Positions 77 to 14,116 of a stretch of DNA of 14,116 bases are shown piece by piece. A program made the translations under genes and the position numbers. The notes beneath the pieces are model-generated. The model was not told the origin of the DNA, searched no databases, and was given only the letters and a program-made list of their open reading frames with translations. Every line of letters starts with the position of its first letter. Within the stretch, counting starts at the first letter, position 1. The DNA is from Octopus vulgaris (lineage: Eukaryota), in NCBI GenBank assembly GCA_951406725.2, contig CATOCA020000050.1, positions 1 through 14,116 on the forward strand. Reading direction: 5' to 3'.

Positions 77-1332
<1,256 letters not shown>

Positions 1333-1400
1333 AGGTTTTTGGCCAGTATTGGCCCAGGCCATGTCTAACTTAATAGCACCACCTGGCGAAGTCTTTCAGT

Positions 1401-3194
<1,794 letters not shown>

Positions 3195-4318
3195 GATTGA
3201 TTGATTGATTGATTGATTCTAGTTTCAGCTTATGAGCTGTGGCCATGCTGGGGCACCGCCATTTGGTGTTGCTACTTGGTTTCACTTCATGGAGGCTTTC
3301 TAGCAACTGCTATTTGGTGCATGAGAGAGTTCGATGCAGCTGCCCTCATCTGCCCCTCCTGCCGTGAAGTTGGTTCATCTGGGACACCTGACAGGAAGAG
3401 ATCCAGCTCCATTTTAAAGACATCTGTATCCACCCCATGCAGGTCTCTCAGGTTCTTCGGGAGGATATTGAAGAGCTGTGGGCCTCGGAAGCCCAGGTTA
3501 TCACAGAATCTTGTCCTACATCTTGATGGCAAGTTTGGAGTCCTAGGCACCACGCAGTGGCGCCCAGTTCTGGCATTTGCGTAACTCTCGATGCCAAAGT
3601 TCAGGACACTTCCCTCCAGGATCTTCCAGATGTATATTATGGCATATCTTTCCCGCCTATGCTCCAGGGAATATAATTTTAATCTCTTGAGTCTTTCCCA
3701 GTAGCTTACATTCTGCATAGAGGCTATCTTCTTTGTGTAGCTTCGTTGGATCGCCTCAAGTTCTGTGATCAACTTGACACTGGATGGTGACCATAGCTGG
3801 GAGCAATAGTCAAAGTGGCTTAGGACAAGTGTCTTCCAGAGGACCATCATGGTTTCTTGTTCTCTTGTTCTAAAGGTTCTAAGAATCCATCCAGCCAGCC
3901 GTCTGCATTTCATTGTCAGTTTAGCAACATGTACATGAAAGGTCGCGTCATCACTCATGTGAATACCCAGGTCACGCACTGATTGTGCCTCTGGGATTGC
4001 AATCCCTCCGGGTCCAGTGTATTCCTTGGGTATTGCATTCAGTTTTGCATGCTGATAGTATAAAGCTTGAAACTTTTCAGCATTGAACTGCATGCTATTC
4101 TTTTCAGCCCACTTGTATATTTCGTCCAGCTCATATTGCAGGTGCTTAGTGTCTTCAGGGTTCTGTATTGCCTGTGAAACTTTTGTATCATCTGCATAAC
4201 TTGTGATCGTGGCTCTCCGCGTGGCTGAGGGCATGTCTGAGAGGGCCATTATGAACAGTAGTGGTCCCAAAACAGTGCCCTGTGGAACACCGCTCACTAT
4301 TTGCGTGCTAATGGAAGT
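3195..4318 (-). mobile_element. 5'-truncated CR1-group LINE, family B, copy 1
   Basis: Reverse complement of 7863-8984 at about 99% identity (roughly ten substitutions and two 1-nt indels by eye). Ends in an (AATC)6 tail at 3195-3218. Confidence 0.95.
3287..4318 (-). pseudogene. LINE ORF2 fragment: C-terminal part of reverse transcriptase plus C-terminal domain, open frame
   Basis: [24 protein letters not shown] and [10 protein letters not shown] motifs; no stops over 336+ codons; truncated at its 5' end. Confidence 0.92.
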
Positions 4319-4770: not shown

Positions 4771-4920
4771 GTATATATATATATGTATATATATATATGT
4801 ATATATATATATGTATATATATATATGTATATATGTATATGTATATATGTATATATATATATGTATATATGTATATGTATATATGTATATATATATATGT
4901 AGATATATGTATATATATAT
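4319..4920. repeat. (TA)n / (TATG)-rich degenerate microsatellite
   Basis: Directly visible; dense G interruptions. Confidence 0.98.
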
Positions 4921-5964
<1,044 letters not shown>

Positions 5965-8893
5965 ATCAGAGGACTACTAACACACAGTAACAGGACAAAA
6001 GTCCCGTTCCTGAGAGACTTTGTCGCATGCAATCAAGCCTTATGCATAGCACTCACAGAAACGCATCTGAAACCGGACATAGCAGATGCGGAATTACACA
6101 TACCACAGTATGTTGTACTACGGACCGACAGGAAAGAAAGAAGTCATGGAGGAGTTGCTATGTACATCCGTGGGGACCTCACACCCCAGGTCCTTTTGTC
6201 ATACTCAAACACTAATTGTACACATAAGGCAACTTGATGTAGTTGTGTGTGCTACATATCGCCCTCCAGATGCCCCAAGTCATATGGGCAAGTTTGAGGA
6301 CTGCCTTTTAAAAATAGAAGAAGTTCTAACCACATTAGAACAACACATAAGTGTACTTCTCATGGGAGACTTCAATCTACCGAATGTCAGATGGCCCGAG
6401 GGCCTTTCTCTCCCAGGAATGACAAGATGTGAACGAGGACAGGCGAGGTCCCTCCTGAACCTCACCAACACCCTGTACATGGAGCAAGTAATACTCCAAC
6501 CAACCAGAGCAGGTAACACACTGGATCTCTGCTTCACAAATAATATGGATCTCATCCATAATGTGAAAGTGACACCGACACTACTCTCGGATCACAACAT
6601 GGTAGAGCTGACCATGTACGGGCCAAAAGAGAGCACGGACATGCAGCCTACAAGAAACCCTCAGAATCTTTCCAGCTTGAACTTCAATAAGGCAAACTGG
6701 AAACAAATTGAGAAAGAGATCCTCAAACAAAACTGGCCTGAATGTCTCTCCTCGCCGGACATCGACATGATACTTCAACAATTCATGTCTGTAATGCAAG
6801 CCATATGCTACAAATGTGTCCCAGAGAGAAAGGCCACTGTACACAAGAACAAAATCCCCAGAGAGAGAAAATTTTAATGAGACGGCGTACAAAAATCTCA
6901 AATCGCCTAAACAAACAAATTGAAAGCAGTGAAAAGTCCCGCCTGAAAATAAAACTGTTGGAAATTGAAAATTGTCTGCAACTCTCCCATGAGAAGGAAA
7001 GAGCAGACAAAGAAGCCTGGGCTATAGACAACATAAAAACTAACCCCAGAGCTTTCTACAGGTATGCCAAAGAAACAGCTACGGTGCACTGTAGGATAGG
7101 GCCACTCCTTGAAAAGGATGGCACACTCACAGGAAAACCAATGAGGGTAAGTGAAATACTGAATGAACAATTCAAGAGTGTTTTCACTCCACCCCTTGGG
7201 CATTTCCAAATCAGCAATCCAACTGACTTTTTACCACTGCAGATATAGAATCAGAGGCGGCGACGTTAAATTACATCGATATAAAGGAAGACGATGTAAT
7301 AAAGGCTATAGATGAAATGAAAATAGACTCAGCTATTGGCCCCGATGGATTCCCGGCAATCCTCCTAAAAGTATGTAAGAGAGTCTTAGCAAGACCACTG
7401 CAGTTCCTCTTTCAGAGCTTCCTTGCAGCTGGCAAACTTCCAAGAAAACTGAAGGAAGGTAAAATATGCCCTATTCATAAAGGAGGTAGCAGAGCGGAGG
7501 CCAAGAACTACAGACCTATCTCTCTGACCTCACACATCAGCAAGGTCATGGAACGAATAGTCAGAAGGAAACTAATCACCTTCCTTGAAGAAAATGACTT
7601 GCTGCCTGACACCCAACATGGTTTCCGACCAGGAAGAAGCTGCTTAACTCAGCTCCTGCAGCACTATGACTGGGTGCTGAAACAACTGCTCAACCACTCA
7701 AATGTGGAAGTCATATATCTCGACTTCGCAAAGGCCTTCGATAAAGTCGATCATGGAATGATATGTCACAAACTGCGTGATCTTGGCATAGTTGGAAAAC
7801 TAGGAGAATGGCTTCACGACTTTCTGAAGAATAGAAGTCAGGTGGTAGTAGCCAATGGGGCCACTTCCATTAGCACGCAAATAGTGAGCGGTGTTCCACA
7901 GGGCACTGTTTTGGGACCACTACTGTTCATAATGGCCCTCTCAGACATGCCCTCAGCCACGCGGAGAGCCACGATCACAAGTTATGCAGATGATACAAAA
8001 GTTTCACAGGCAATACAGAACCCTGAAGACACTAGGCACCTGCAATATGAGCTGGACGAAATATACAAGTGGGCTGAAAAGAATAGCATGCAGTTCAATG
8101 CTGAAAAGTTTCAAGCTTTATACTATCAGCATGCAAAACTGAATGCAATACCCAAGAATACACTGGACCCGGAGGGATTGCAATCCCAGAGGCACAATCA
8201 GTGCGTGACCTGGGTATTCACATGAGTGATGACGCGACCTTTCATGTACATGTTGCTAAACTGACAGTGAAATGCAGACGGCTGGCTGGATGGATTCTTA
8301 GAACCTTTAGAACAAGAGAACAAGAAACCATGATGGTCCTCTGGAAGACACTTGTCCTAAGTCACTTTGACTATTGCTCTCAGCTATGGTCACCATCCAG
8401 TGTCAAGTTGATCACAGAACTTGAGGCGATCCAACGAAGCTACACGAAGAAGATAGCCTCTATGCAGAATGTAAGCTACTGGGAAAGACTCAAGAGATTA
8501 AAATTATATTCCCTGGAGCGTAGGCGGGAAAGATATGCCATAATATACATCTGGAAGATCCTGGAGGGAAGTGTCCTGAACTTTGGCATCGAGAGTTACG
8601 CAAACGCCAGAACTGGGCGCCACTGCGTGGTGCCTAGGACTCCAAACTTGCCATCAAGATGTAGGACAAGATTCTGTGATAGCCTGGGCTTCCGAGGCCC
8701 ACAGCTCTTCAATATCCTCCCGATGAACCTGAGAGACCTGCATGGGGTGGATACAGATGTCTTTAAAATGGAGCTGGATCTCTTCCTGTCAGGTGTCCCA
8801 GATGAACCAACTTCACGGCAGGAGGGGCAGATGAGGGCAGCTGCATCGAACTCTCTCATGCACCAAATAGCAGTTGCTAGAAAGCCTCCATGA
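5965..8893 (+). pseudogene. LINE ORF2 (APE endonuclease + reverse transcriptase) with four frameshifts
   Basis: Stitched from ORFs 5785, 6086, 6742, 7317 and 8201. Lesions: 14-nt deletion after 6210 (vs copy 3), inferred 1-nt losses at ~6870 (A run) and ~7230 (T run), and a lost G at ~8156 (vs copy 1). Confidence 0.92.
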
Positions 8894-8984
8894 AGTGAAA
8901 CCAAGTAGCAACACCAAATGGCGGTGCCCCAGCATGGCCACAGCTCATAGCTGAAACTGGAATCAATCAATCAATCAATCAATC
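5965..8984 (+). mobile_element. CR1-group LINE, family B, copy 2: near-complete ORF2, 3'UTR and (AATC)6 tail
   Basis: APE endonuclease motifs (IRGL, ALTETHL, GGVAMY, YRPP, MGDFN, LDL, SDH), RT motifs (NYRPISLTS, QHGF, YLDFAKAFD, GVPQG, YADD), C-terminal domain, tail at 8961-8984. Confidence 0.96.
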
Positions 8985-9070: not shown

Positions 9071-9090
9071 CATATATATATATATATATA
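8985..9090. repeat. Short (TA)n microsatellite
   Basis: Directly visible. Confidence 0.95.
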
Positions 9091-9317
9091 CGTTCTGAGA
9101 TTTAATAATATTTTATATATATATATGGATTAAAAATGGGAAAAATTGATGGTAAATTTTTTTTTTAAATCGTAGACTCATCGTAGACGCGCGCCATATA
9201 TATGAATCACGACTATAAGATACCCGGTTTTGGTTAAACTGCACCGCAAAATGTGGGAGTAGTTAGGAATCTAAATCGTAGGAGACAGACACACAATCTC
9301 ACTTTTATATATAAAGA
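9091..9317 (-). mobile_element. Possible non-autonomous Helitron-like element, 5' portion
   Basis: Minus strand starts A|TCTTTATATATAAAAGTGAGATTGTGTGTCTGTCT, matching the TC 5' end, AT-rich leader and GTCT repeats typical of invertebrate non-autonomous Helitrons. No CTRR 3' end found. Confidence 0.45.
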
Positions 9318-9547
9318 TTTCCTCTATTTACATAATATTGAGGTCTCTTTCTTTCTTTTGTTATCTTACTGTTTTTACCAATATACATATATATATATAT
9401 ATAAATATATATATAGTTACAGAGATGTACTTGCATAGCAAGTGACTTAATCTGAGATCGTGTGCTGGAACGAAAACAGTTGCAGCGTTGAAGGTGTTTA
9501 TAAGCCATTTAAGAAACACACAAAACCGTTAGATTCACTTCAACATT

Positions 9548-9669
9548 TAAATTAAATTTGTCAAAATATTTTTCGAGCGCTTGAGACCGCGACCTGTTAG
9601 CACGATATTTTTGTCAGTGAACAGGTCGCGGTCTCAAAGCGACGAAAATATTTTACTCAATTAAATTTA
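9548..9669. repeat. Imperfect inverted repeat, ~50-bp arms, 21-nt spacer
   Basis: Perfect 18-bp core TTGAGACCGCGACCTGTT (9581-9598) / AACAGGTCGCGGTCTCAA (9620-9637), with imperfect pairing outward. Confidence 0.92.
9610..9660 (+). ncRNA. Minimal type I hammerhead ribozyme-like motif, G3:C8 variant (partly decayed)
   Basis: TTTGTCA (stem I 5') - GTGAACA core - G - GTCGC/GGTCTCAAA/GCGAC stem II - GAAA - ATAT - TT. The stem I 3' strand is decayed here but intact (TGACAAA) in the inverted copy at 9563-9557. Confidence 0.55.
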
Positions 9670-9960
9670 CCCCCACCACGCATGCCGGAAGTTCCTATTC
9701 GGTCTTCCATTCCGGGGTTGCTTTCTTAAGACTGGCTCTCACCATCCCTACCCCCTTCCCTACCCCTAGTCTCGACCTATGTAAGGTAATATATATACAG
9801 TGCAAATATATGATATAGGCTAGCGTATATGCAGGTATGTACTGAAGGCTATGTGTGTACTTCATTTTTTGCATGAATTCTGCCAAATGTGTGCGTGTCT
9901 TTTCAGGTACACGAAGCTACTGTCCACCGTCCCAGGGTCTCTAGAGCCCATGCTTGACAA

Positions 9961-10100
9961 CGGGTTGGCACCTTTGTTGGCATCCCTGTCAGGTCTAGTG
10001 AGATAGTCGAGATGCTTGAAACGGAGATGTGTGGATATATGTTGCATGCAAGAAATAAGGTGGAGAGGAGGATCAAACTAGGTTCTTCACAGGCATTGAA
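9961..10100 (+). pseudogene. Decayed RTE-clade APE endonuclease N-terminus relic
   Basis: With two +1 shifts (10021, ~10077) it reads RVGTFVGIPVRSSEIVEMLE/RRCVDICCMQEIRWRGGS/TRFFTG, matching the RTE EN start pattern (VGT..NV..L...E....VDI.C.QE.RW.G). Confidence 0.7.
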
Positions 10101-10152
10101 CGCATGGCCACAGAGCAATGGCTGGAAAAAGCAGAAGAATAAAAGGAATTAT

Positions 10153-10767
10153 TGAGGGGGACCTCTACATGGTAGCTAGACCTGGTAGAAATAGCAGCAA
10201 AATTTCCCCCCAAATCACACCTTACTGTCTTATCTATGTATATATGTATGTATGAGCCTATGAGGGAGACCCCTACATGGCAGCTAGACATGGTAGAAAT
10301 AGCAGCCAAATCTCCCTCAAATCACACCTTACTGTCTTATGTATGTATATATATATGAGCCAATGAAGGGGGACCTCTACATGGTAGCTAGACCTGGTAG
10401 AAATAGCAGCCAAATTTCCCCCAAATCACACCTTACTGTCTTATCTATGTATATATGTATGTATGAGCCTATGAGGGAGACCCCTACATGGCAGCTAGAC
10501 CTGGTAGAAATAGCAGCCAAATTTCCCCCAAATCACACACTTACTGTCTTATCTATGTATATATGTATGTATGAGCCTATGAGGGAGACCCCTACATGGC
10601 AGCTAGACCTGGCAGAAATAGCAGCCAAATTTCCCCCAAATCACACCTTACTGTCTTATCTATGTATATATGTATGTATGAGCCTATGAGGGAGACCCCT
10701 ACATGGCAGCTAGACATGGTAGAAATAGCAGCCAAATCTCCTCAAATCACACCTTACTGTCTTATCT
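10153..10767. repeat. Minisatellite, six units of 104-108 bp (last partial)
   Basis: CTACATGG anchor at 10165, 10273, 10377, 10484, 10592 and 10699; core GGTAGAAATAGCAGCCAAAT..CAAATCACACCTTACTGTCTTAT. Confidence 0.96.
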
Positions 10768-10802
10768 TTCTGCTACTTATATTCGTCGTAAAACTTTCCT
10801 GT

Positions 10803-10874
10803 CACACACTCACGCACACGCACACACACACACACACGCGCGCACCCTCACACACACACGCGCGCACACCCTCA

Positions 10875-10907
<33 letters not shown>

Positions 10908-10921
10908 TCACACACACGCAC
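10803..10921. repeat. (CA)n microsatellite with CG/CT interruptions
   Basis: Directly visible. Confidence 0.95.
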
Positions 10922-11099
10922 GTTAGCTTACAATTTTATTTATATATTTGCGTGTCTATGTGTTGAAAGAGGAAGTGGGAGGCAGAGTGAAAGAATCACT
11001 CACTACAGTAAGTAAATTACTTTCATTTTATTCGCTGCCCACTGTGTGTGTGCGTTTGCGTGTGGTGTAAACCAGACTAAGAAAAGCATTTGACACACA

Positions 11100-11288
11100 C
11101 ACCAGAATGTGAGTGTTTCTGTAAATTTTGCTTAATTGGAGTTTAAATTTTAAAAACTGGACCTGGCATGACGCGATGCATTGTACTCTTAAAATTGCTA
11201 GGTAAATTGTAATTGAAGAAATCCTATATTGTAGATTTGTATAACTCCCAAAGGGAGGCATATAAAATCTGCCTTTTATAATAAGAGA
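11100..11288 (-). mobile_element. Possible second Helitron-like 5' end (left boundary uncertain)
   Basis: Minus strand starts A|TCTCTTATTATAAAAGGCAGATTTTATATGCCT, with a TC start, AT-rich leader and subterminal hairpin (11256-11274). Confidence 0.35.
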
Positions 11289-12970
<1,682 letters not shown>

Positions 12971-13042
12971 GTCCACAACCCGTGGCCTTCTACATGGGAT
13001 GGAGCCAGCCTACGTATGCATACCTTCCCTTCTTGGGACACA

Positions 13043-13250
13043 AAACTCTACTTGTGAAGACGTGTTGAGGCAAGTGAGGATCAGAATCGAAATCGATCAA
13101 TGGAAATTGCGGATGTGCTACCAGTGCCGGTGGCATGTCGAAACTCTGCTTGTGAAGACCCATTGAGGCAAGTGAGGATCAGAATCGAAATCGATCAATG
13201 GAAATCGATCAATGGAAATTGCAGATGTGTTACCAGTGCCGGTGGCATGT
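13043..13250 (+). repeat. ~98-bp direct tandem duplication in RTE 3'UTR; second unit has an extra 14-bp duplication
   Basis: AAACTCT.CTTGTGAAGAC...GGTGGCATGT at 13043-13138 and 13141-13250; GAAATCGATCAATG doubled in unit 2. Confidence 0.92.
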
Positions 13251-13575
13251 AAGAGAACCTTCCGTTTCGCGACCGTTGCCAGCACCGCCCCGTTTCGTGT
13301 TCGTTGCCAGCCTCGCCTGGCCCTCGTGCCGGTGGCACATAAAAAACACCATCCGTTCGTGGCCGTTTGCCAGCTCTGGCTGGCACCAGTGCGGGTGGCA
13401 CGTAAAAAGCACCCACTACACTCACGGAGTGGTTGGCGTTAGGAAGGGCATCCAGCCGTAGAAACACTGCCAGATTTGACTGGGCCTGATGAAGCCTTCT
13501 GGCTTCACAGACCCCAGCAGAACCGTCCAACCCATGCTAGCATGGAAAACGGACGCTAAATGATGATGATGATGA

Positions 13576-13647: not shown

Positions 13648-14116
13648 CCAGACCACCACAGCAAACAGACACAGGATGGACACCGCCGGCAACAACGTAC
13701 ACATCACCTCGATACTCCTACTGAACATCAGAGGACTGCAAACACTCAGTAACAGGACAAAGATCCCGTTCCTGAGAGACTTTGTTGCATGCAATCAAGC
13801 CTTATGCATAGCACTTACAGAAACGCACCTGAAACCGGACATAGCAGATGCGGAGTTACACATACCACAGTATGCTGTACTACGGACCGACAGGAAAGAA
13901 AGGAGTCATGGAGGTGTTGCTATGTACATCCGTGAGGACCTCACACCCCAGGTCCTCTTGTCATACTCAAACTCGGTGTGTGACACACTAATTGTACATA
14001 TTAGGCAACTTGGTGTAGTTGTGTGTGCTACATATCGCCCTCCAGATGCCCCAAGCCATGTGGGCAAGTTTGAAGACTGCCTTATAAAAATAGAAGAAAT
14101 TCTAACCACATTAGAA
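13648..14116 (+). mobile_element. CR1-group LINE, family B, copy 3 (runs off window)
   Basis: 13727-14116 aligns to 5965-6340 at roughly 94% identity by eye and retains the 14 nt missing from copy 2. Confidence 0.94.
13676..14116 (+). CDS. LINE ORF2 N-terminus (APE endonuclease), open for 147 codons to the window edge
   Basis: Own translation: [52 protein letters not shown]...GGVAMYIRE...TYRPP...; absent from the ORF track because no stop lies in the window. Confidence 0.8.
   Translation, partial: MDTAGNNVHITSILLLNIRGLQTLSNRTKIPFLRDFVACNQALCIALTETHLKPDIADAELHIPQYAVLRTDRKERSHGGVAMYIREDLTPQVLLSYSNSVCDTLIVHIRQLGVVVCATYRPPDAPSHVGKFEDCLIKIEEILTTLE

What the first reader, a model, noticed from the sequence alone, without database searches (positions are those of the whole stretch)
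9548..9669. Inverted pair of variant (G3:C8) minimal hammerhead ribozymes, Penelope-type
Seen: GTGAACA (9617-9623) + G + 5-bp stem II (9625-9643) + GAAA (9644-9647) + palindromic ATAT loop + TT. The 7-nt stem I can be rebuilt from the two arms (TTTGTCA 9610-9616; TGACAAA on the minus strand at 9563-9557). Known: the canonical core is CUGANGA with a C3:G8 pair, and PLE pseudo-LTRs carry minimal hammerheads with palindromic loop III that cleave as dimers. Here both paired positions are swapped (G3:C8), there is an extra nucleotide after A9, and the cleavage triplet is UUU, so standard motif searches would miss it. Each local copy is partly decayed; the family consensus is the candidate ribozyme.
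Basis: partly seen in the sequence, partly recalled or inferred. Interest (0 to 1): 0.75.

Follow-up and report, generated by a model that had tools for sequence, protein, structure and literature searches.

The report
Swapped-core hammerhead in Penelope retrotransposon
This hairpin is the broken end-piece of an abundant Penelope-type jumping gene whose RNA carries a small hammerhead motif with two paired core letters swapped (G3:C8 instead of C3:G8); the intact family motif likely still cuts itself weakly, but cutting is untested and this copy is predicted to be inactive.

Summary
The motif is present at the stated coordinates. It is the pseudo-LTR hammerhead motif of a Penelope-like retrotransposon (RT plus C-terminal GIY-YIG, Nematis-like linker). 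The pLTR segment lies 1.0-1.4 kb downstream of the endonuclease in 27 of 30 loci and about 60 nt upstream of the ORF start. The G3:C8 core is fixed in the family (5,777 exact 20-mer copies). Sister families in the same genome carry the homologous motif with C3:G8 or U3:A8, so three Watson-Crick pairs occur at 3:8, with compensatory changes in the stems.

The 'inverted pair' is not two ribozymes. It is one 5'-inverted insertion whose second arm lacks half the core, later multiplied as cargo of a Helentron-like repeat.

Against essential cleavage: a mismatched G3:G8 sublineage also multiplied, and only 1 of 59 insertions starts at the predicted cut (control family 0 of 30, so uninformative). I found G3:C8 in print only as a partly active laboratory double mutant; one key paper was not available. 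This scan noted the same swap before on other DNA, including this genome. Verdict: new variant of a known kind; cleavage untested.

The parts
9610..9660 (+). Minimal type I hammerhead-like motif of the PLE pseudo-LTR: stem I 5' strand 9610-9616, core 9617-9623 (G3 = 9617, C8 = 9622), extra G 9624, stem II 9625-9643, GAAA 9644-9647, palindromic ATAT 9648-9651, U16.1 9652, U17 9653 (predicted cut after 9653); stem I 3' strand damaged in this copy
9599..9669 (+). Direct arm of the PLE pLTR insertion, 5'-truncated; in sibling copies it runs about 70 nt further and ends at the first of the two family 3' ends
9416..9598 (-). Inverted, 5'-truncated pLTR arm. It starts inside the core (at A6), keeps the stem I 3' strand (9563-9557) and runs to the second family 3' end, next to (TA)n. 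Not a complete hammerhead
9416..9508 (-). First about 30 codons of the PLE ORF (ATG at 9508-9506), carried inside the pLTR; in a longer copy this frame continues into the RT ORF
   Evidence: L127
9089..11290 (+). Non-autonomous composite repeat with Helentron/HINE-like ends (class recalled; abstract of PMC4067079 seen) that carries the PLE fragment as cargo; its 5' end is missing in the window copy
9655..10110 (+). Stretch colinear with the composite family but insertion-rich and poorly matching; possible long-read error

Best explanation
The hairpin is a 5'-inverted pseudo-LTR fragment of a Penelope-like retrotransposon family whose minimal hammerhead motif has the core pair swapped to G3:C8; the intact family motif likely self-cleaves slowly after U17 as a dimer or with help from the element's protein, while this window copy is predicted to be inactive. 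SHOWN: the motif sits in both pLTRs of an RT + GIY-YIG element, about 60 nt before the ORF start; G3:C8 is the family state; sister families have C3:G8 or U3:A8 at the homologous place; intact copies fold in silico into stems I and II; the window copy is cargo of a larger repeat and folds into one long hairpin. INFERRED: the swap keeps the 3:8 tertiary Watson-Crick pair, as in the laboratory C3G/G8C rescue; the AUAU palindrome supplies helix III between two copies (tandem units or two transcripts); U17 avoids a G3-C17 mispair; cleavage would cut the roughly 60-nt leader off the ORF or cut tandem transcripts into units, and is not needed for insertion, since most insertions were copied from uncut RNA. 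Odds: hammerhead homologue about 0.95; measurable cleavage about 0.55.
For: PLE link: segment on the same strand 988-1363 nt behind the GIY-YIG hit in 27 of 30 loci, G3:C8 in 26 of those 27 (one has the core deleted). ORF with RT motifs and Pfam GIY-YIG (E 1.8e-5). The upstream pLTR leads into the ORF. Insertion signature: adjacent 5'-inverted copy in 20 of 30 loci; 3' ends cluster at two sites about 58 nt apart (11 and 14 of 30); TA-rich targets, as described for PLEs (PMC8557442, PMC11167929). Fixed state: 5,777 G3:C8 against 356 non-C8 and 175 non-G3 copies in the same 20-mer context. Covariation: family B (57% protein identity) has C3:G8; family C has U3:A8 in 28 of 29 correctly oriented rows, endonuclease upstream in 11 of 30; 1,805 canonical-core matches, control 1, one of them (L262) endonuclease-linked with the same stem I letters as family A. 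In an 11-row alignment 3:8 pairs in 11 of 11 rows with three pair types, stem II pairs in every cell, covariation score 0.418 against 0.216 +/- 0.032 (0 of 500 shuffles). An intact natural copy folds with P 0.75-1.0 for the stem I and II pairs. In a PLE hammerhead the single mutants are dead and C3G/G8C partly restores cleavage, which needed the element's protein (PMC11167929). A G3-C8 variant is reported as more active with G17 than with C17 (PMC3884650, 'data not shown'). A short direct tandem array of the motif exists (L443).
Against: No cleavage data: the listed runs are contigs only. A mismatched G3:G8 form is common (42 of the first 100 listed of 356 non-C8 copies, against 9 C3 in the first 100 listed of 175 non-G3 copies; counted by eye), occurs in both arms of one insertion (L333) and nests among G3:C8 copies in the tree, so a predicted dead core still retrotransposed. 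The youngest family B copies carry A9C. Only 1 of 59 non-cargo copies starts at the predicted cut and 48 of 59 hold the whole core; family B gives 0 of 30, so this test does not discriminate. Six of the 11 alignment rows came from a pattern that demanded C3, G8 and some stem II letters, which inflates the covariation. Stem I pairs in only 69% of cells. Minimal PLE hammerheads cleave poorly in vitro even with a canonical core (PMC4209133).
Confidence: 0.68

Rival explanations
1. The motif is a hammerhead descendant that no longer cleaves at a useful rate. Its fold is kept as a binding or folding signal for the RT/EN protein, or by descent, and the 3:8 swap is near-neutral.
For: The G3:G8 sublineage multiplied; A9C in young family B; insertions come from uncut RNA; hammerhead mutants did not affect insertion in vitro and no RNA-seq reads ended at the cut in another PLE (PMC11167929).
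Against: Three different Watson-Crick pairs at 3:8, a tertiary pair of the active fold; U4-G5-A6, G12-A13-A14 and G10.1:C11.1 invariant across 11 rows while loop II and stem I letters change; G3:C8 outnumbers the mismatch forms more than tenfold.
Confidence: 0.27
2. The inverted pair itself is the working unit: two hammerheads in opposite orientation that act together in this window.
For: The same junction recurs in all 30 loci.
Against: The recurrence is cargo amplification, with flanks shared over hundreds of bases on both sides; other insertions have different inversion points; the minus arm lacks G3-U4-G5; a transcript of the pair folds into one hairpin (-54 kcal/mol in the window, -90 in a sibling).
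Confidence: 0.03
3. The hairpin is a MITE-like DNA element and the hammerhead likeness is chance.
For: Long inverted repeat in (TA)n; no Rfam hammerhead hit in the window at E up to 10.
Against: Fixed position in the PLE pLTR; variable truncation and inversion; 0 of 3000 shuffles; Rfam also misses the canonical-core sisters.
Confidence: 0.02

Closest known systems
Minimal type I hammerheads (min-HHR) in pseudo-LTRs of metazoan Penelope-like elements (Cervera and de la Pena 2014, PMC4209133; parts 1-2 of 4 read)
   Same: Position in the pLTR; extra nucleotide between 9 and 10.1; G10.1:C11.1; small palindromic helix III; most copies solo, some in opposite-strand pairs; a natural U3:A8 core variant.
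   Different: The core pair is G3:C8, which the parts read do not report; stem II is 5 bp and stem I 7 bp; cleavage is not tested here.
PAc (Poseidon, Anolis carolinensis) hammerhead and its engineered C3G/G8C double mutant (Frangieh et al. 2024, PMC11167929; part 1 of 4 and passages read)
   Same: Same base swap; motif at the pLTR-ORF junction; two 3' ends giving a tail; uncut RNA is the main insertion template.
   Different: There the swap is engineered, here it is natural and fixed in thousands of copies; here the ORF starts about 60 nt after the cut, not inside the motif; the protein has a CxxxCxxC linker (Nematis-like), which Poseidon lacks.
Natural hammerhead core variants (Perreault et al. 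2011, PMC3088659; section 8 and passages read)
   Same: Compensatory change at the 3:8 pair in nature (U3:A8).
   Different: The text read lists U3:A8, A6C, insertions and U15.1-A16.1, not G3:C8.
Nematis clade of EN+ PLEs (Craig et al. 2021, PMC8557442; passages, section 11 and supplement hits read)
   Same: C-terminal GIY-YIG with CCHH; CX2-5CxxC linker with the short spacing of the Nematis rows in Fig. S2; pLTRs, inverted 5' copies, (TA)n targets.
   Different: The clade call rests on motif spacing by eye, with no tree against named references; ORF of 1,000-1,300 aa; tail about 58 nt rather than 30-40.

Membership tests
Penelope-like element (EN+, C-terminal GIY-YIG) | [quoted passage not shown] | tested here: met
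   Pfam GIY-YIG above cut-off; RT motifs (GIAG..A, YVDD) read by eye, since Pfam gave no RT hit at E 0.1. The ORF lies in family members elsewhere; the window holds only its first codons.
Penelope-like element (EN+, C-terminal GIY-YIG) | Pseudo-LTRs, 5' truncation, inverted 5' copies, 3' tail | tested here: met
   20 of 30 with an inverted copy; two 3' ends; direct pLTR-ORF-pLTR in L127.
Nematis clade | CX2-5CxxC linker with short spacing, plus CCHH | tested here: met
   One search compared by eye with the Fig. S2 rows.
Nematis clade | RT phylogeny groups it with named Nematis elements | not tested
   No named references were aligned.
Naiad clade | N-terminal GIY-YIG | tested here: not met
   GIY-YIG at residues 915-1005 of 1025.
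Minimal type I hammerhead | Invariant U4 G5 A6, A9, G12 A13 A14, A15.1:U16.1, H17 | tested here: met
Minimal type I hammerhead | Consensus letters C3 and G8 | tested here: not met
   G3 and C8 in 5,777 copies; filed as a variant for this reason.
Minimal type I hammerhead | Watson-Crick pair between positions 3 and 8 | tested here: met
   Complementary in 11 of 11 rows with three pair types; sequence-level evidence only, rows partly selected by pattern.
Minimal type I hammerhead | Stems I and II around the core, G10.1:C11.1 | tested here: met
   Met in intact family copies; stem I not met in the window copy (1 bp).
Minimal type I hammerhead | Palindromic loop 3 that allows a dimer | tested here: inconclusive
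   The palindrome is present; cofolding two copies gave intermolecular pairing in stems I and II and left the palindrome unpaired; same-strand partners exist in L127 and L443.
Minimal type I hammerhead | Site-specific self-cleavage after N17 | not testable with these tools
   Only contigs could be laid; the genomic footprint test does not discriminate.
Helentron-associated non-autonomous element (carrier) | Subterminal inverted repeat at the 5' end, hairpin near the 3' end, captured fragments | tested here: inconclusive
   Common 5' end in 13 of 13 and 3' end with hairpin in 10 of 13 loci printed; the features are recalled, only the abstract of PMC4067079 was seen; no autonomous partner was sought.

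The most novel reading that the evidence does not exclude
One PLE clade in this genome has sampled three Watson-Crick pairs at the hammerhead's catalytic 3:8 position. The G3:C8 family is a working natural ribozyme, co-adapted with U17, that sits about 20 nt behind a capped transcription start and removes the leader from the ORF. Its G3:G8 sublineage and the A9C sister are natural 'off' alleles, which makes the clade a ready-made test of what hammerhead cleavage does for Penelope elements.
Probability: 0.35. Interest if true: 0.65.

Novelty: new variant of a known kind. Interest (0 to 1): 0.47.

Why it matters
G3:C8 has served as a laboratory rescue control for the hammerhead's tertiary core pair. 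A retroelement family that fixed it in thousands of copies, beside sisters with C3:G8 and U3:A8, is phylogenetic support for that pair in minimal PLE hammerheads. It also shows that CUGANGA-based searches undercount these ribozymes. The clade offers matched natural alleles (C3:G8, U3:A8, G3:C8, G3:G8, A9C) for the open question of whether hammerhead cleavage matters for Penelope transposition. The window copy itself is ordinary repeat debris.

Tried and rejected
Rfam found no hammerhead in the window or in four pLTR loci, two of them with a canonical core: uninformative. The genome search with RF00163 gave 6 matches in which my descriptor and the family queries found nothing. My first guess, Naiad, was rejected because the endonuclease is C-terminal. 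The metagenome scan for related elements gave 1 weak locus of 89 candidate stretches. A search with a distant homologue's endonuclease returned mostly families A and B. No RNA holder was listed; laying contigs cannot show ends or expression, and gaps in cover over 9820-9869 prove nothing. The cut-site footprint in genomic 5' ends was 1 of 59 in family A and 0 of 30 in family B; B mostly carries A9C, so it is an imperfect control. The idea that G3:G8 is the ancestral intermediate is not supported: the three endonuclease-linked G3:G8 copies fall in one subclade with G3:C8 copies and G3:C8 occurs on three other branches, but the base of the family is unresolved. Cofolding did not give the dimer fold. 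Alignment A1 had one row on the wrong strand and was replaced by A2 with a changed row set. L101 and L256 were entered in the wrong orientation; L101 has the segment on both sides, so 27 of 30 stands, and L256 was left out of the core count. Three papers that could bear on novelty or rates were not available: Lunse et al. (PMC5785218), Przybilski and Hammann 2007 (PMC1986816), Nelson and Uhlenbeck 2008 (PMC2151028).

Full report
Observation. Only the + arm holds a whole core. The - arm begins at A6 and lacks G3-U4-G5 and the 5' strand of stem I. In the window the + arm pairs 1 bp of stem I, while 27 of 29 sibling copies pair 7 bp with one wobble. The damage starts where the window becomes an insertion-rich, poorly matching version of the family sequence (9655-10110); read error is plausible but not shown. 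The window is a whole 14,116-base contig of a 2.8-Gb genome. That genome encodes a protein 99-100% identical to one that NCBI names from Octopus vulgaris.

Why the pair recurs. A DNA search scored 40 of 925 candidates and returned 30 loci, all with the same junction. Flanks were aligned for 18 of the 30 and are shared for several hundred bases on each side in the 9 rows printed. A common 5' end was found in 13 of 13 and a common 3' end with a hairpin in 10 of 13 loci printed. The pair is therefore one old insertion copied as cargo in a composite repeat of about 2.2 kb (window 9089-11290). Its ends resemble Helentron-associated elements (recalled; abstract of PMC4067079 seen). Conservation among these copies says nothing about ribozyme function.

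The source element. A pattern covering the core through the 3' strand of stem I has 553 exact matches (control 0). In the first 30 loci the segment shows variable 5' truncation, an adjacent inverted copy in 20, and 3' ends clustered at two sites about 58 nt apart (11 and 14 of 30), often beside (TA)n. One locus had a GIY-YIG-like frame upstream. Searching with that frame (150 of 4,050 candidates scored, 30 loci taken) showed the segment on the same strand 988-1363 nt downstream in 27 of 30 loci, with G3:C8 in 26 of the 27. Longer stretches hold RT plus C-terminal GIY-YIG frames of up to 1,025 aa. In L127 an upstream copy of the motif leads into the ORF about 60 nt after the predicted cut, and a second copy follows 4.3 kb downstream. 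The linker spacing matches the Nematis rows of Fig. S2 in PMC8557442 by eye; Naiad is excluded by domain order.

The core swap. In a fixed 20-letter context the genome has 5,777 G3:C8 copies, 356 with another letter at 8 and 175 with another letter at 3. Old and young subfamilies differ in loop II but keep the core. Family B, found by protein homology (57% identity; intact 1,312-aa ORFs between two pLTRs), has at the same place a motif with C3:G8, compensatory stem II changes and A9C in its youngest copies. Family C has U3:A8 in 28 of 29 correctly oriented rows, with an endonuclease upstream in 11 of 30 loci. A canonical-core pattern has 1,805 matches (control 1), among them an endonuclease-linked copy with the same stem I letters as family A and a core that differs only at 3 and 8 (L262). 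The N-terminal peptide after the motif is homologous in A, B and C. In a structure-blind alignment of 11 natural copies, 3:8 is complementary in all rows (C:G 7, G:C 3, U:A 1) and stem II pairs in every cell. The covariation score is 0.418 against 0.216 +/- 0.032 (0 of 500 shuffles; slid controls at most 0.133); stem I pairs in 69% of cells. Six of the 11 rows came from the pattern that fixed C3, G8 and part of stem II, and related rows can beat this shuffle control, so the score is an upper reading. A relaxed descriptor, written after seeing the motif, hit none of 3,000 shuffles for each of three pLTR windows. An intact natural copy folds into stems I and II as its minimum-energy structure.

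Results against an essential role. Of the first 100 listed non-C8 copies 42 have G8, 38 T8 and 20 A8; of the first 100 listed non-G3 copies 9 have C3 (counted by eye). Scaled to the totals, C-to-G at 8 is about nine times the symmetric change at 3, so G3:G8 was present in templates. It occurs in both arms of one insertion (L333) and on several sequence backgrounds. In a 21-row tree of the ORF 3' part the three endonuclease-linked G3:G8 copies lie in one subclade with G3:C8 copies, and G3:C8 occurs on three other branches; the base is unresolved. A reversion that still transposed is the simpler reading. Among 59 non-cargo copies anchored 3' of the cut (62 loci from the first 100 listed of 3,588 matches: 30 given by the tool, 32 picked by me to avoid known cargo; 8 cargo copies dropped by the script), 1 starts at the cut, 48 hold the whole core and 31 start 52-66 nt upstream. 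Family B gives 0 of 30 at the cut, so the test shows that uncut RNA is the template but does not rank the families. All sequencing runs that I laid were contigs.

Mechanism. The 3:8 pair is part of the active hammerhead fold (PMC3884650, part 1 of 5). In the Anolis PLE hammerhead each single mutant is dead, the C3G/G8C double mutant is partly active, cleavage needs the element's protein, and insertion does not need cleavage (PMC11167929). Minimal PLE hammerheads are inactive as monomers and weakly active as dimers (PMC4209133). I infer that the family motif is a slow, dimer- or protein-assisted ribozyme that would cut after U17, between a short leader and the ORF. U17 fits the report that G3-C8 is more active with G17 than with C17 (PMC3884650, data not shown there), but U17 also occurs in some C3:G8 sisters, so co-adaptation is a guess. 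The main rival is a retained fold without useful cleavage (0.27).

Comparison with what is known. The extra nucleotide after A9, the palindromic loop 3, opposite-strand pairs and a natural U3:A8 variant are all in PMC4209133; U3:A8 is also in PMC3088659. I found G3:C8 only as an engineered mutant. The searches behind that statement were made, which cover open-licence PubMed Central papers and bioRxiv only. The paper most likely to list such variants (Lunse et al., PMC5785218) was not available and I saw only its title. The supplements of PMC4209133, PMC3088659 and PMC11167929 were not read and may bear on this. Also seen: part 1 of 5 of bioRxiv 10.64898/2026.07.22.740005, passages of PMC6765202 and part 1 of 2 of PMC2920678. 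Earlier notes of this scan report the same swap in other genomes and in a satellite of this genome; they are unchecked and are not counted as support.

Verdict. A real hammerhead homologue of a Penelope-like element with a natural, family-wide G3:C8 swap and sister-family covariation; a new variant of a known kind; activity untested; the window copy is inert cargo. Interest 0.47.

Noticed in passing
family A pLTR, 60 nt upstream of the predicted cut (e.g. L352, L355, L380); just upstream of window 9599, missing in the window copy: Many insertions start at one base, and 15 of 28 non-native junctions there are preceded by G (background 12.5%). This could be a copied cap at a transcription start, or the end of a spliced first exon, since the same place looks like a 3' splice site with a branch point. 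10 of the 15 have TG, so microhomology is also possible.
   Followed up: partly
L331-L333, L311-L330: An amplified G3:G8 mismatch form of the motif, roughly 150 copies by scaling the listed sample.
   Followed up: partly
L134-L171 (family B): A very young PLE family with intact 1,312-aa ORFs, tandem units of about 4.6 kb, a long Asn-rich low-complexity insert and a hammerhead with A9C; other copies have A9.
   Followed up: partly
L215, L228-L257 (family C): A PLE family whose hammerhead has U3:A8 and a 3-bp stem I.
   Followed up: partly
L443:330-790: Four direct tandem copies of the G3:C8 motif at about 100-nt spacing, a natural dimer-capable array.
   Followed up: no
window 9655-10110: Colinear with the composite family but insertion-rich, starting right after the hairpin; possibly uncorrected long-read error.
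   Followed up: partly
window 3231-4317 (-) and 5965-8949 (+): A LINE-like endonuclease/RT element with a 99% identical inverted partial copy (arms 3231-4029 and 8151-8949); a further 5' fragment of the same kind at about 13690-14116. Class read by eye.
   Followed up: no
window 11400-13570 (+) and 4920-5400 (-): An RTE-like LINE 3' part ending in a (GAT)n tail and a related short copy on the other strand; a fragment of another LINE-like element at about 1330-1970 (-). Classes recalled, not tested.
   Followed up: no
window 10150-10770: A tandem array of about 104-nt units inside the composite repeat.
   Followed up: no
L222-L227: Six Rfam Hammerhead_1 matches elsewhere in the genome, in repeats not matching families A or B.
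   Followed up: no
runs X10, X16, X17: The pLTR segment is held by runs with four different organism labels, so the family is probably shared among related species.
   Followed up: no
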